DNA of 59,484 bases from Saccostrea cucullata. Taxonomy: Eukaryota. Made by a program: the position numbers. The DNA lies in assembly GCF_032062105.1 (NCBI RefSeq), contig NW_026934603.1, positions 1 through 59,484 on the forward strand, read 5' to 3'. Within the stretch, counting starts at the first letter, position 1. Each line of letters begins with the position of its first letter. Below, piece by piece: positions 28,101 to 36,400 of the stretch.

Positions 28101-30376
28101 ATTTCAATGTTCAAATCTTTTTAACTTGTTGAAAAAAATCGTTTAATTGTGCATAGATTTTACATGTAAGTTAATTTGAACATTTATCCTGACAAATTAG
28201 TGTATATGATAACTGTATACCAACATGCGATATATGTCATGAAGCATAAAATTAAAAAAAAAAAATAACCTCAGCATTGGACAAACACTCATCGTCAATT
28301 GAAAGTTTTAGTACAAAATTTTGCATAGTTTGATAAATTGTCAGGGTAATCATTCTACAAACACTCTTTTACTGGCATGTTTCTCTGGTAAGCGATACAT
28401 TTATAATGCAGGTAAATGTTCTCCGGGTTCTGCATCACCGGGTTTTTTTGCAAGTTTTGCTGATCTATACTTTGTGATTGTTCGTAACTTCATATTTACC
28501 ACAGTTCTTTGTAGATGTCTAAAAAAATAACAAAATCAATCTTTCAATGACATAATCAAACGTTTTGTCATACTATGGGTGCAACAACATAATCTGGCGA
28601 GGCTTTTTTTTTTTTTTTTTTTTTTTTTTTGCAAGACAAAATATTCAGGAAGTTTTGCTCTTTGCAAGGGTGTCTTATAGCTAGGGATGTCAATTAATTG
28701 ACTTACTATCTAATAAGGAAATACTCCGCTAGCATTTTTATTATTGGGTTATAACAAAAACTAATGCATACCCACAGAAGCATTTCAAACACAGTACTGT
28801 CACTACAGATAGAACCACAACAGGGATTACTATAATGAGGGCAACTTCCCATTCTTTCAAGCTGAAAAAAAAATAATTACAAATTCAATAAGAACAAATT
28901 ATCATATTTTAATGAATTTATAGCAAAAAAGAAGGGGGTCATCAATTCGTGTCAAACCGTTCTTCAGGGTCACATAATGCTGATGAATTTTATTACCGGG
29001 ATATTAAGAATGTTCTTCTTTTACACTAATTAATCTCATTCTATATTCACTTGACCGGTATTTATTCTATACTCATGTGTCAAGCATTTAACTATTTAGT
29101 GAAGACTTTATGTTCTTAATATTTTTCAAAAACAAATGGATTGTAAGCATAATCGAACAAGTTATTTTGGATTTCAAAGGTAAACTAGAACTGTATAATT
29201 CAATACGTGCGTTAATGACCCCCTCCCTCCCCCCACCCTGGGACGTCAATTCTGGGCCCAGCTGAGCAAGAGGAAAAAAAGGGGAAAACCCCAGATATTT
29301 TCAATATACATATAGCTTTATCATAAGGAAGCAATATAGAGGGACGTGGACACAACTTGACACAAATTTTTGATGAGCAGTTATGATCATTATGATGAAA
29401 AGTTATGAAGGATTTTTTTAGAGGGGACACAACCATAATTTAACTTTGTTTTCTATTGTTTAGCATATACTTGCAAAATTATAACGGGCACAGTTAAAAA
29501 CAAGATGGTATCTTTTTAAAAAACAAAACGGAACGTATCCCCTTCCTTACCAATATTAAGGAATGCACCCATGTGTACAAAATTTCAAGTCTTCATGACA
29601 GAAAGGGCTTTGTCTATGAATAAATAAGGAGAATTTCGAAGAATCCCTTTATTTGATGGTTTTGCCTTCGCCCTCCATCCCTGCCGCATGTAGGACCTTG
29701 ATTAATTATATACAGTTCGAAGACATTGACATTATCCAGAGCTCTCTTTTTTTCAACACCAAACACCAACTCTTTTTTTGTTGTAGAAATGGCTTTTGAC
29801 AAGTAAGTGATTTGGCAATTTTCGATGAATCTAAAATCGTTTGCTTTATCAACCATATAGATAATTCTTAATTATGTTTAAAATGTACAGTGTTTAGAAT
29901 TCTGATGCACAGGAACTGTTTAATCATAACATAAAGTACATAGTAGTGACACTTTGCATTTTTGTTTTAAACGAAAATTAAGTCAAGATCCTGCAAAATA
30001 CATGTATGATTTAGTCGTAATTTGACAGATTTGTGCAATCAGATTTGAAAGTTTAGTCAATGACTAATAATTTTTGCTTGTGTAATACTCAGGTCACATT
30101 TAGCTCTCATCCACCCCCTCCCGCACGCTGAACAAGGAAATTGACAAGGAGGCATTTAATTACTTTCCATTATATTGTGTTTAGACAGATATTATTTCTA
30201 CCTTGAGTCCATTTCATTTGTCATCATGCCCTTTGTATTATTCTTGCTGAAAGTGGTCCTTGGTCTATAACACTCTTCATCTGTATAAAAAAAAGAAATA
30301 CTATTTAATATTACATGTATTTCTCTGTTTGAGTATTCAAGTTCTAGATTCTCATATAGTCAAGGCCATCAAACTA

Positions 30377-30470
<94 letters not shown>

Positions 30471-33400: not shown

Positions 33401-36400
33401 AGAGCGATACCTCTCTAGCCTAGAGAGATATCTCTAAAGCTTATAGAGATATCTCTTTGACCAATAAAGATATCTTCATACCTTAGAGAGATATCTCTTC
33501 AAACAAATAGATATACCTTATTGAAAGAGAGATATCTCTTTTACTTAGGGAGATATCTTTAAAAGCTTGAGAGATGTCTTTAAGCGAGAGAGAATCTCTT
33601 TAAGTTAGAGAGATATCTCTTTAACAAGGTTACAAGATATATCTTTCTTAGTTATTTATCTCTTTAGATTTTCAAAAAAAGATATCTTTCTAAGCTAAAG
33701 AGATTTATTATACTTCTGTGAAATGTTTCCTATATAAAGTTAAGAAGGTAAAATAACTATCTTTTATAGTTTACGCATAGCAAAGCTATACCTCGAGGTA
33801 TAATTTTTGCTATCCACCCTTGGAAATTTTTCATGCAAATTTTGCCTCCAATTTTGATTTCCAGCGATAAATCTATTGACTGATGATGTCATGATGACTT
33901 CAGTAGCATTGTGACGTCATCAGGATTCAGAATTATTCTTGCAGTATTATCATACTCCTAAAAAGTCAAACCTAAGATATTATATTATACATCAGTATAA
34001 TATAACGCTTATCTACTGGTTGTAAGTGGGATAGCCCTCGGGGAATAGTTCCCTGTCGCGGGTTTGATAAAAGAGCTATCCCACTAACAACCAGTGGATA
34101 ATATCTTTTAATGAAAGAGATATCTCTTTATCAGTCATCCTTTAAATAAAATAATTAATTCTCCCCTTTAAAACGAAAGCGAAACAGGAAGTAAAGTCTC
34201 TAGAATAATTTCGCTGGAAAATGTTATGAAGCCCTTGTTTGAAACAGCAAATAGCGATGGCAACTTTCTAGATTAAAAATGCTAAACGTGTGATTTTCAG
34301 GAAAACGAAAGTAAGCCTACGATATCTCAAATATAATAGACCGAATTTTCTCAGCTTATGAAATAATCAGGTACTACAAAATTGAAACATAGACAACACT
34401 GAATTATTTGTCATATTTAATTAAGCTATAATGTAGCATATTATGAATAAGCTTAAAAATACTTTCCTGTACTTCCGTGAATAAAAAGATTACTTCTGGT
34501 AAAGGGGGAAATTTATGCAAATGGAATCTATATTAAAATAATGAAGAGAGATATATCTTTGCAATAAAGAGATATCACTTTTTGCTCGAGAGCTTGCACG
34601 TTCAAGCGTTATCCAAAAATCACGCAAATTTTTTTTCTTCATACTTTGGCTTCCTTTTTATCATAACCATGCTGTGGGTCCTATTTCTGCTGGGTAGAGA
34701 TAAGAAAAAAATTAAGGAACAATGCATTTACATGTAAAATTTTAAATATAGACCCCTGCGCTAACACCAGAATTCCAGACTCAAGGCCCATGAACATCTT
34801 CGAACAATTGTATGGTTGCCCCTTCCCGACCGACTGTCTAAAAAACAACCCGACTTAAAACTTTTTACCATTTCAGAACACTGTTTTGTTCTCTTATTAT
34901 TCCTGTCATCCCGTCAACAAATATTAAAAAATTTTCTGAAAAAGAATTCCACTTACCTATTGGTCCATTAATTTTACGCTGTGTCGGGAGAGGACAAGAA
35001 AGTATTATTCAAAGATGGCTTGAACCATTATAACTATATACTTAATTTGTCTTCTGTATATACACGGGGATAGAAGATTTTAGAGAACTTAATTTCACTA
35101 TATAATCTATGACGAATGTCAGCACTGTAAAATAAAAATCTAAAGTGCTGTTTCAAAAACATGAATATTGGTACAATTATTTGAACACTTGCTGAATATT
35201 TTAAAATTCTTATTACCATTCATTCAAATTACAGTAAACTTGTGCGTTTCTTAAATGCATCTAAAGGACCCGCAAAAACAGTAAAAAACATTTTTAATGG
35301 TAAAGACAATTCCTGAACTTGCTGACAAAAAAATAAAGCTTACCATGTAAGCAAATTCTCTCAATACATCCAGCTCCCAACGAACCATTTATATGGAATG
35401 CGCATATGAATATTAAACTATGATTACATGCTGGTGGATTTGGCTGTCGACAAATTGCATCATTGGTGAGTATTTTGAAATCCCTGACGGGCTGCTGTAG
35501 TTTACACTAAAATACAAGAAATTGTGAGCAATACTTCAAAGTAATAATTTCAAAGTTTTAATCTAAGAAAAATGTTGACTGTTAAAGTGAGCTAAATAGG
35601 AATATATGTATACAAAATTTAACTTTATAAGTACCTTGCCATCAGATTGCTGATCTCCAAACACTGTTGCTTGGAGGCAAATAAGCACAGATGCCAATAG
35701 TGCATACCGATCCACATCATTTTTCGCAGGCATACTGTAGAGAAAATGATATATACATGTAGTTTATTTCTTTGATCGTTTTCACGAAGCCTACAATTGG
35801 ATAAGTATTAATATCCTGGTGGAAACTGGAATTATAGAAACAACATGCTATGGTATGTGAAATCATACGTAACAATTATATAAAATTAAACGTTTGAGCC
35901 CTACTCAACATAGGCTGCTGGTCCCAGGATCATGAAACAGACTTAGACTTAAAGACAGATAATATAAAATAAACTTTTGTAAAAAAAAAAATTAAAATGA
36001 GTAAAAGGAAAATGTTTCACTGCTTACTTTTTTATTCGAAATTTCACATAAAGAGGATTTTAAGTGAAAAACATTTGTATAGATTAGGATTTAAAAATTC
36101 CCTTCATATATCTATGTGGGAAAATGTTGACCCCATGTAATCTATCCTAATGAAGTCATGAATCAAAATTAGCAAAATTATAATGAAACCTACATTGAAA
36201 ATGTTTAATTTTAATGTTACTATTATTGAATTGATCTGCTATTTTCTGTATACATGCATCTTATAATTTTTTTCCTGGATTATAGTCTGGTCCTGATGCA
36301 TGTTTATTAATTAGAAAACACAGATTTATTTGTCTTCAACGAACGTCTCAATCGACAATTAATCTTTATATATTTGAAAGTCTCAAAACGTGAAAATATC

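What the first reader, a model, noticed from the sequence alone, without database searches (positions are those of the whole stretch)
28401..35733. Hidden six-exon orphan receptor-like type I membrane protein with an unrecognised Cys-rich ectodomain
Seen: none of these exons is in the ORF track, yet six GT-AG exons splice with matching phases into 220 aa. The order is signal peptide; ~120-aa ectodomain with 9 Cys and five N-X-S/T sequons (NHS, NGS, NNS, NIT, NNT); short stalk; TM helix; juxtamembrane CLKCFC; basic tail. I do not recognise the Cys spacing (C..C..C..C..C / CP..Q..CxxC..Y..YxxCY) as EGF, TNFR, Ig or lectin. Inference: it resembles my recollection of lineage-expanded uncharacterised bivalve surface proteins and could be an immune or recognition receptor. 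The odd Cys count could allow a disulfide dimer, and the juxtamembrane Cys may be palmitoylated.
Basis: partly seen in the sequence, partly recalled or inferred. Interest (0 to 1): 0.72.

Follow-up and report, generated by a model that had tools for sequence, protein, structure and literature searches.

The report
Probable orphan single-pass membrane glycoprotein gene
A six-exon gene model on the minus strand looks real and would encode a small, cysteine-rich, sugar-coated cell-surface protein with no recognisable relatives, but without transcript or homolog data it stays an unproven, fairly ordinary orphan gene.

Summary
They are 99, 151, 126, 79, 90 and 118 nt, all GT-AG, with matching phases, giving 663 nt or 220 codons plus TAA. 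Read exon by exon, they give a signal-peptide-like start, a Cys- and sequon-rich middle, one strong hydrophobic helix, CLKCFC and a basic tail.

An open spliced chain alone is common by chance: 16 of 20 simulated strands had one. A chain with splice sites this strong, a signal-like first exon and one TM exon appeared in 0 of 1,000 simulated and 0 of 2 reversed strands. The thresholds were set after seeing the model, and relaxing all of them gives 24 of 120.

- codon-position GC bias;
- a strong acceptor 1 nt before the ATG;
- a textbook AATAAA plus GT-rich element about 300 nt after the stop.

One correction: a stronger in-frame acceptor at 35506 adds four residues and a 10th ectodomain Cys. 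That weakens the odd-Cys dimer idea.

Exon-by-exon searches of Pfam, PDB and the Atlas found nothing, and fragment folds were low-confidence. The joined protein was not built, searched or folded. The bivalve expansion and immune role remain untested.

The parts
35735..35754 (-). Acceptor-like site (pyrimidine tract plus CAG) ending 1 nt before the ATG. It suggests a 5'UTR intron and an unseen upstream non-coding exon.
   Evidence: 10 of 12 pyrimidines and C at -3. Only about 1.6-1.8% of AGs in the window reach 10 or more. It is listed among the strong acceptors (first exon base 35734).
35635..35733 (-). Exon 1: ATG plus 33 codons. It has a signal-peptide-like n-region with K and R, then a hydrophobic core. 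A likely cleavage site has V at -3 and G at -1, before DQQ.
   Evidence: best 10-residue Kyte-Doolittle window 2.92. Donor AAG|GTACTT scores 0.8. Amino-acid composition is in the top 3.7% of 10,925 open AG..GT null segments.
35344..35506 (-). Exon 2, preferred form (163 nt).
   Evidence: The acceptor at 35506 has 9 of 12 Y, against 6 of 12 at 35494. Donor ATG|GTAAGC scores 5.16.
31841..31966 (-). Exon 3 (126 nt, phase 1 to phase 1). It holds 3 Cys including a CxxC, and sequons NNS and NIT.
   Evidence: (acceptor 9 of 12 Y; donor ATT|GTGAGT 1.98).
30202..30280 (-). Exon 4 (79 nt, phase 1 to phase 2). It holds the last ectodomain Cys, sequon NNT and an acidic stalk.
   Evidence: (acceptor 11 of 12 Y; donor AAG|GTAGAA -0.13, the weakest donor).
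28772..28861 (-). Exon 5 (90 nt, phase 2 to phase 2). It holds the Val/Ile/Leu-rich transmembrane helix followed by CLKCFC.
   Evidence: best 19-residue Kyte-Doolittle window 3.14. Acceptor 10 of 12 Y; donor TGG|GTATGC 1.52. An alternative donor lies 4 nt upstream, with last exon base 28776.
28401..28518 (-). Exon 6 (118 nt including TAA at 28403-28401). It encodes a basic cytoplasmic tail of 38 whole codons.
   Evidence: 8 K/R against 3 D/E; acceptor 10 of 12 Y. It is one of 8 possible last exons. It is preferred because it lies upstream of the poly(A)-like signal and avoids the A27 run.
28044..28103 (-). Poly(A)-signal-like arrangement. AATAAA at 28103-28098 is the first one after the stop, 298 nt downstream. 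An 18-nt all-G/T element follows at 28061-28044.
   Evidence: it is the only 1 of 223 AATAAA sites in the window, both strands, followed within 5-70 nt by an 18/18 G/T stretch with 5 or more G. Four of 223 reach 17/18. AATAAA itself is at background frequency (223 found, 202 expected).
31967..35343 (-). Intron 2 (3,377 nt, GC 0.306). It carries palindromic MITE-like repeats and a 21-nt tandem array.

Best explanation
This is most likely a real protein-coding gene on the minus strand with six coding exons, probably preceded by a non-coding 5' exon. The protein would be a single-pass type I membrane glycoprotein that no known family claims. The inferred working is as follows. The N-terminal signal sequence sends the chain into the ER and is cut after about residue 26. 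The roughly 130-residue luminal or extracellular part folds as a disulfide-stabilised module, with 10 Cys forming up to five bridges, and carries up to five N-glycans. One Val/Ile/Leu-rich helix spans the membrane. The three Cys at its cytosolic end are candidates for S-acylation. The short basic tail of about 40 residues has no recognisable signalling domain, so any signal would pass through a partner. I therefore read it as a cell-surface binding or accessory (co-receptor-like) protein rather than an autonomous receptor. Shown here: the exon structure, splice-site strength, hydrophobic segments, Cys and sequon counts, and charge asymmetry. Inferred: expression, cleavage, glycosylation, disulfides, acylation and function. 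My confidence that a real gene with this architecture is present is about 0.7. My confidence in the surface-binding or accessory role, given a real gene, is about 0.4.
For: Structure: exon lengths, phases and GT-AG borders are consistent. Splice sites: all five donors score -0.13 or more on a generic donor matrix, which is about the top 10% of roughly 3,000 GTs per strand. With 35506 as the E2 acceptor, all five acceptors have 9 or more of 12 pyrimidines and Y at -3, which is the top 4-5% of AGs. Uniqueness: a search of both strands of the 59,484-nt window at those thresholds found 8 signal-like first exons. Only the one at ATG 35733 reaches a stop through a single TM-like exon. All 8 chains from it share E1 to E5. 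Null: 0 of 700 order-3 Markov strands, 0 of 300 locally trained order-2 strands and 0 of 2 reversed strands hold such a chain. With only hydrophobicity relaxed the null gives 1 of 200, and with only splice sites relaxed 4 of 200. A strong acceptor lies 1 nt before the ATG. The first AATAAA after the stop is the best of 223 for a downstream GT-rich element. Protein-level coherence: there are 5 sequons where 0.77 are expected (P 0.0012), all before the TM helix and none after. There are 10 Cys where 4.3 are expected (P 0.013). The stretch before the helix is acidic and the stretch after it is basic. The exons are single-copy in the window and avoid the repeats.
Against: There is no transcript and no homolog. 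Exon-by-exon searches found nothing. In Pfam, 0 of 6 exon peptides were above cut-off, with only DUF1289 at E 0.029 and Psg1 at E 0.17. In PDB, 5 of 6 had no hit at E up to 10, and E3 had only two zinc-finger CxxC look-alikes at E 0.21 and 2.9. In the Atlas, the best score was 0.79, below the tool's 0.9 lead level, for exon 2, and there was no usable hit for exon 3. So purifying selection is not shown. Amino-acid composition of E2 to E5 is unremarkable: 22-40% of 10,925 null open segments score as high. Exon GC of 0.37-0.45 is also unremarkable once open frames are selected for, with 14-40% of null segments as high. The thresholds of the chance test were set from the model itself. With all thresholds relaxed, 24 of 120 null strands give a chain. 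In a genome-wide scan, chance chains are therefore expected somewhere. Two of the five donors are weak by the generic matrix (0.8 and -0.13). The last exon is not unique, with 8 options. Fragment folds were low-confidence, with pLDDT 39.7 and 54.1.
Confidence: 0.6

Rival explanations
1. Chance chain: the locus is non-coding. The model would be one of the many open GT-AG chains that AT-rich DNA offers, picked out because it happens to look like a membrane protein.
For: Open ATG-to-stop chains of 150 aa or more with 6 or fewer exons are common at these splice thresholds: 16 of 20 simulated strands (83 start codons), 8 start codons in the reversed window and 10 in the real one. With all thresholds relaxed, signal-plus-TM chains appear in 24 of 120 null strands. 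Composition and GC of E2 to E5 are ordinary for open segments. No homolog or family was found.
Against: At the model's own stringency, 0 of 1,000 simulated and 0 of 2 reversed strands give such a chain.
Confidence: 0.2
2. A real gene whose model is partly wrong. It might have another last exon or E5 donor, extra coding exons upstream (E1 as an internal exon), or both E2 acceptors in use (two isoforms with 9 or 10 ectodomain Cys).
For: There are eight alternative endings. The strong acceptor at 35734 would allow an upstream exon, and the frame stays open for 10 codons before the ATG. Two in-frame acceptors lie 12 nt apart. With relaxed thresholds, upstream ATGs at 36807 and 36638 also chain into the same exons.
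Against: E1 to E5 are the only path through strong sites. The alternative last exon at 28705-28536 reads through an A27 run as poly-Lys. The six other endings lie beyond the poly(A)-like site. The signal-like sequence directly after the ATG fits a true N-terminus.
Confidence: 0.15
3. A diverged member of a known Cys-rich receptor family, such as a TNF-receptor-type CRD or a three-finger Ly6/uPAR/TGF-beta-receptor-type ectodomain like the kinase-less pseudoreceptor BAMBI. Exon-sized queries would be too short to detect it.
For: Overall build: a small type I protein with about 10 ectodomain Cys, a CxxC followed directly by Asn near the end of the Cys-rich part, and a short tail. Exon-level searches lose power for domains that span exon borders. 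The likeness itself is recalled from memory, not from a call.
Against: No Pfam match even at E up to 10 for exon 2, and none relevant for exon 3. No PDB match either. The Cys spacing, worked out by arithmetic, is C-17-C-7-C-7-C-11-C-4-C-5-C-22-C-2-C-15-C. It lacks the adjacent CC and the N-terminal CxxC of three-finger domains, and the tight C-x(0-2)-C-x(2-3)-C cluster of TNFR repeats (family patterns recalled).
Confidence: 0.12
4. A decaying or very young gene. The frame is still open but the product is not under selection: a proto-gene, or a dispensable gene of the kind described in mussel pan-genomes.
For: No detectable relatives. Composition of E2 to E5 is close to that of random open segments. 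Taxonomically restricted and dispensable genes are discussed for mussels in PMC7653742; I saw only the search listing and the start of its abstract.
Against: The frame is intact across six exons, the splice sites are strong, and the topogenic signals are coherent. The organism was not identified here.
Confidence: 0.1

Closest known systems
Small single-CRD members of the TNF-receptor superfamily (type I, short tail). The comparison is from recall.
   Same: A small type I membrane protein with a short disulfide-rich ectodomain containing a CxxC, and a short cytoplasmic tail without an enzymatic domain.
   Different: No TNFR_c6 match at exon level. The Cys spacing does not fit the recalled CRD pattern. 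Loops of 17 and 22 residues are longer than in CRDs. I saw no TRAF-type motif in the tail by eye.
Three-finger (Ly6/uPAR, activin/TGF-beta receptor) ectodomains, including the kinase-less pseudoreceptor BAMBI. The comparison is from recall.
   Same: Ten Cys in roughly 100 residues ahead of a TM helix, and a Cys followed directly by Asn, then an aromatic residue, near the C-terminal end of the Cys-rich part. Like BAMBI, it has no kinase.
   Different: It lacks the CC doublet, the C-x4-C-N knot and the N-terminal CxxC. No Pfam or PDB hit was found at exon level. The fold could not be tested because only fragments were folded (pLDDT 39.7 and 54.1).
Taxonomically restricted or uncharacterised secreted and membrane genes of molluscs
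   Same: No detectable homolog, a signal peptide, and Cys-rich. Such families are reported in mussels (PMC4558851, PMC7653742; search listing and start of abstracts only).
   Different: Those reports concern short secreted peptides or gene presence-absence, not this protein. The organism of this window was not established. No paralog lies in the window.

Membership tests
Type I single-pass membrane glycoprotein (a topological class, not a homology family) | N-terminal cleavable signal sequence | tested here: met
   E1 has K and R in the first 9 residues. Its best 10-residue Kyte-Doolittle window is 2.92. V at -3 and G at -1 precede DQQ, read by eye. No dedicated predictor such as SignalP was available.
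Type I single-pass membrane glycoprotein (a topological class, not a homology family) | One transmembrane helix with positive-inside charge asymmetry | tested here: met
   E5's best 19-residue Kyte-Doolittle window is 3.14. No other exon passes 2.5 in the chain search. The stretch before the helix is acidic, and the tail has 8 K/R against 3 D/E.
Type I single-pass membrane glycoprotein (a topological class, not a homology family) | N-glycosylation sequons confined to the luminal side | tested here: met
   All 5 of 5 sequons lie in E2 to E4 and none in E5 or E6. Only 0.77 are expected by chance (P 0.0012). Occupancy is not testable here.
TNF-receptor superfamily | Cys-rich repeat (Pfam TNFR_c6; tight C-x(0-2)-C-x(2-3)-C core) | tested here: not met
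   No Pfam match for any of 6 exon peptides at E up to 10. The spacing has no such core. The pattern is recalled, the search was exon by exon only, and a border-spanning weak match could be missed.
Ly6/uPAR and activin-receptor three-finger domains | N-terminal CxxC, and a C-terminal CC followed by C-x4-C-N | tested here: not met
   No exon holds an adjacent CC. The only ectodomain CxxC is in E3, near the end of the Cys-rich part. There is no Pfam hit. The motifs are recalled.
Ly6/uPAR and activin-receptor three-finger domains | Three-finger beta fold | tested here: inconclusive
   Only exon fragments were folded, with pLDDT 39.7 for E2 and 54.1 for E3. That is too low for a fold search. The whole ectodomain was not folded because the joined step was left out.
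EGF-like domain | Six Cys in 30-40 residues, including a C-x-C | tested here: not met
   No C-x-C occurs in the ectodomain exons, and there is no Pfam EGF hit.
Within the window no paralog was found: the best non-self tblastn hits had E of 0.059 or more, and the alignments shown contained stops.

The most novel reading that the evidence does not exclude
The ectodomain could be a new disulfide-rich fold restricted to one invertebrate lineage. It would sit on a palmitoylated single-pass anchor and work as a recognition or co-receptor module, for example in innate immunity. Alternative use of two acceptors 12 nt apart would switch the ectodomain between 10 Cys (all paired) and 9 Cys (one free, able to form a covalent dimer).
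Probability: 0.08. Interest if true: 0.55.

Novelty: new member of a known kind. Interest (0 to 1): 0.3.

Why it matters
If real, it adds one more unclassified surface glycoprotein to an invertebrate genome. That helps annotation, because default ORF-based tracks miss it entirely. It also gives a candidate for a new Cys-rich ectodomain family. It does not open a long-standing question, since thousands of such uncharacterised genes exist in invertebrate genomes. This one may already be annotated as an uncharacterised protein in the source genome, which I could not check. The practical lesson is about method. Matching phases and GT-AG borders alone are not evidence of a gene in AT-rich DNA. The combination of strong sites, topogenic signals and a 3'-end signal is evidence.

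Tried and rejected
1. Pfam on the six exon peptides at E up to 10 gave only DUF1289 (E 0.029, 14.7 bits against a cut-off of 27) and Psg1 (E 0.17, 12.1 against 30.1). I rejected both as noise.

2. PDB sequence search of all six exon peptides gave 0 hits for five. For E3 it gave two PRDM9 zinc-finger chains at E 0.21 and 2.9, with no stretch passing. I rejected these as CxxC...H look-alikes.

3. The ESM Atlas was given exon 2 (54 aa form) and exon 3. Exon 2's best score was 0.79, to a viral hypothetical cluster, below the 0.9 lead level. Exon 3 had no usable hit.

4. AlphaFold2 single-sequence folds of exon 2 and exon 3 gave pLDDT 39.7 and 54.1. I ran no fold search, because low-confidence models give meaningless matches.

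5. tblastn of exon peptides against the window looked for paralogs. A cluster of weak hits at 7.5-8.9 kb looked like a possible paralog, but the alignments contain stops. A scan of minus-strand ORFs at 36-48 kb for Cys-rich or TM pieces showed no second copy.

6. Amino-acid-composition log-odds and exon GC, used as coding tests, did not discriminate once open frames are selected for.

7. Rfam and tRNA scans, run to find intronic RNAs as signs of transcription, found none.

8. AATAAA counting alone is uninformative: 223 found against 202 expected.

9. A 22-nt segment at 34978-34957 has a strong acceptor and a strong donor. It cannot be an exon of this frame, because it gives a stop after E2's phase.

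10. One literature search returned general context only and nothing on this protein.

11. Complex prediction was not used. The dimer idea needs the whole ectodomain, and the joined step was left out.
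Full report
**What is there**

The model lies on the minus strand. Reading the window and extracting the pieces by coordinates gives six exons.

| Exon | Coordinates | Length (nt) | Note |
|---|---|---|---|
| E1 | 35733-35635 | 99 | ATG at 35733 |
| E3 | 31966-31841 | 126 | |
| E4 | 30280-30202 | 79 | |
| E5 | 28861-28772 | 90 | |
| E6 | 28518-28401 | 118 | ends TAA |

- The exons sum to 663 nt, which is 220 codons plus the stop.
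- All five introns are GT-AG.
- The end phases (0, 1, 1, 2, 2) fit the next exon's frame.
- The four split codons are not stops.
- Exon GC is 0.36-0.45 and intron GC is 0.24-0.33.

- E1 is a signal-like start.
- E2, E3 and E4 hold 5, 3 and 1 Cys and the five sequons.
- E5 is a Val/Ile/Leu-rich helix followed by CLKCFC.
- E6 is a basic tail.

None of the exons appears in a default start-to-stop ORF list of 60 aa or more on that strand.

**The joined step was left out**

Every database search and fold used one exon at a time. This lowers sensitivity for any domain that spans exon borders.

**A correction to exon 2**

Twelve nucleotides upstream, in frame, lies a better acceptor with 9 of 12 pyrimidines and first exon base 35506. 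It adds four residues, one of them Cys, and raises the ectodomain count from 9 to 10.

Every chain that passes the strict search uses this acceptor. An even Cys count removes the main argument for a free Cys and a disulfide dimer. The two sites could instead be used alternatively.

**Is it more than chance?**

I wrote a chain search that looks for a full gene-like path on a strand. It requires:
- an ATG exon, then up to five further exons, then a stop;
- introns of 60-3,500 nt;
- a coding length of at least 150 aa;
- checks on split codons.

Splice thresholds were set at the model's own weakest sites. For donors this was -0.2 or more on a generic donor matrix recalled from memory. For acceptors it was 9 or more of 12 pyrimidines with Y at -3.

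Without any protein-level requirement, open chains are common. The real window has 10 such start codons and the reversed window has 8. The simulations gave 83 start codons across 20 strands, and 16 of the 20 strands had at least one. So 'six GT-AG exons with matching phases' is not evidence by itself.

I then also required a signal-like first exon and exactly one TM-like exon after at least 80 aa. The results depend on how strict the thresholds are.

| Test set | Splice thresholds | Hydrophobicity thresholds | Strands with a chain |
|---|---|---|---|
| Real window, both strands | strict | strict | 1 start codon, ATG 35733 (of 8 signal-like first exons) |
| Order-3 Markov | strict | strict | 0 of 700 |
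| Locally trained order-2 Markov | strict | strict | 0 of 300 |
| Reversed window | strict | strict | 0 of 2 |
| Order-3 Markov | strict | relaxed | 1 of 200 |
| Order-3 Markov | relaxed | strict | 4 of 200 |
| Order-3 Markov | relaxed | relaxed (120 aa minimum) | 24 of 120 |

The thresholds were set after seeing the model, and Markov nulls are simpler than real DNA. The true chance rate per strand is therefore probably a few per thousand to about one per hundred. That is small for this window. It is not negligible across a whole-genome scan.

- **Codon periodicity.** GC at codon positions 1, 2 and 3 is 0.47, 0.40 and 0.34. GC1 minus GC3 is 0.127, against 0.022 +/- 0.062 in random sets of six open AG..GT segments. 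Five per cent of those sets reach it.
- **Acceptor before the ATG.** A strong acceptor (10 of 12 Y) ends 1 nt before the ATG. This is what a 5'UTR intron would leave.
- **3'-end signal.** The first AATAAA after the stop is at 28103-28098. An 18-nt all-G/T stretch at 28061-28044 follows it. It is the only 1 of 223 AATAAA sites in the window with such a stretch, and 4 of 223 reach 17 of 18. Six of the seven other endings found lie beyond it, and the remaining one reads through an A27 run.
- **Sequon and Cys excess.** There are 5 sequons where 0.77 are expected (P 0.0012), and all lie before the TM helix. There are 10 Cys where 4.3 are expected (P 0.013).

**Evidence against**

- Amino-acid composition of E2 to E5 is ordinary for open segments, at the 22-40% level. 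E1 and E6 are in the top 4%.
- Exon GC is not unusual once open frames are selected for.
- Two donors are weak.

**What it is related to**

I could find nothing.
- **Pfam:** no family for any of the 6 exon peptides above cut-off.
- **PDB:** no significant hit for any of the 6.
- **Atlas:** nothing usable for exons 2 and 3.
- **Fragment folds:** low confidence.
- **Paralogs:** none in the window.

Several points therefore stayed unchecked. They are 'orphan', 'bivalve', 'lineage-expanded' and whether the source genome already annotates this gene.

The Cys spacing with the 35506 acceptor is C-17-C-7-C-7-C-11-C-4-C-5-C-22-C-2-C-15-C, worked out by arithmetic. It does not fit my recalled patterns for EGF, TNFR repeats or three-finger domains. 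A Cys-Asn-x-x-aromatic stretch after the CxxC recalls the end of activin-receptor-type ectodomains, but that is only a lead.

**How it most likely works (inference)**

- The signal sequence targets the chain to the ER and is cleaved.
- The ectodomain folds with up to five disulfides and five N-glycans.
- One helix anchors the protein in the membrane.
- The three cytosolic-border Cys may be S-acylated.
- The short basic tail has no recognisable signalling module, so the protein would act as a binding or accessory surface protein working through partners.

I put about 0.7 on a real gene of this architecture and about 0.2 on a chance chain. Within 'real', much uncertainty remains about the exact ends and the function.

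**Verdict**

This is a credible but unproven gene model for an unclassified small type I membrane glycoprotein. It is ordinary in kind, so interest is modest.

Noticed in passing
window 32378-32519, 32421-32731 and 32851-33176 (intron 2): A near-perfect hairpin has 61-nt arms, 95% complementary, 20 nt apart. It sits inside a unit of about 326 nt that is repeated once at 90% identity. The pair looks like two tandem MITE-like insertions.
   Followed up: partly
window 33399-33624 (intron 2): A tandem array of about 11 copies of a 21-nt unit, built around a short palindromic core. The copies match at 63%, and many overlapping inverted repeats are present.
   Followed up: partly
window 34009-34101 and 52258-52325: A hairpin with 30-nt arms (90% complementary) in intron 2 has an 81%-identical 68-nt copy about 18 kb away. 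It is probably another small dispersed repeat.
   Followed up: no
window 30377-30468 and 28604-28630: An (AT)46 microsatellite lies in intron 3 and a T27 run in intron 5. Read on the minus strand, the T27 run would make the alternative last exon encode poly-Lys.
   Followed up: yes
window 41026-41373, minus strand: An open frame of 115 aa has a sub-threshold Pfam match to Vma12, an ER assembly factor for V-ATPase (E 2.3e-4, 21.6 bits against a cut-off of 25.5). It may be an exon of the next gene upstream on the same strand, about 5.3 kb from the ATG.
   Followed up: no
window 1382-2068, minus strand: This is the longest open frame in the window, 228 aa, very acidic and Lys-rich, with no Pfam match. 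It is probably a coding exon of another gene. From recall it resembles nucleolar proteins, which I did not test.
   Followed up: no
window 36636-36752, minus strand: This is the only other TM-like open segment in the window flanked by a strong acceptor and donor. It is Val/Phe-rich and followed by a Cys cluster, loosely like exon 5. I found no matching Cys-rich exons around it, and it remains unexplained.
   Followed up: partly
window 34957-34978, minus strand (intron 2): A 22-nt segment is bounded by a strong acceptor and a strong donor, like a micro-exon. It gives a stop in the frame set by exon 2.
   Followed up: yes
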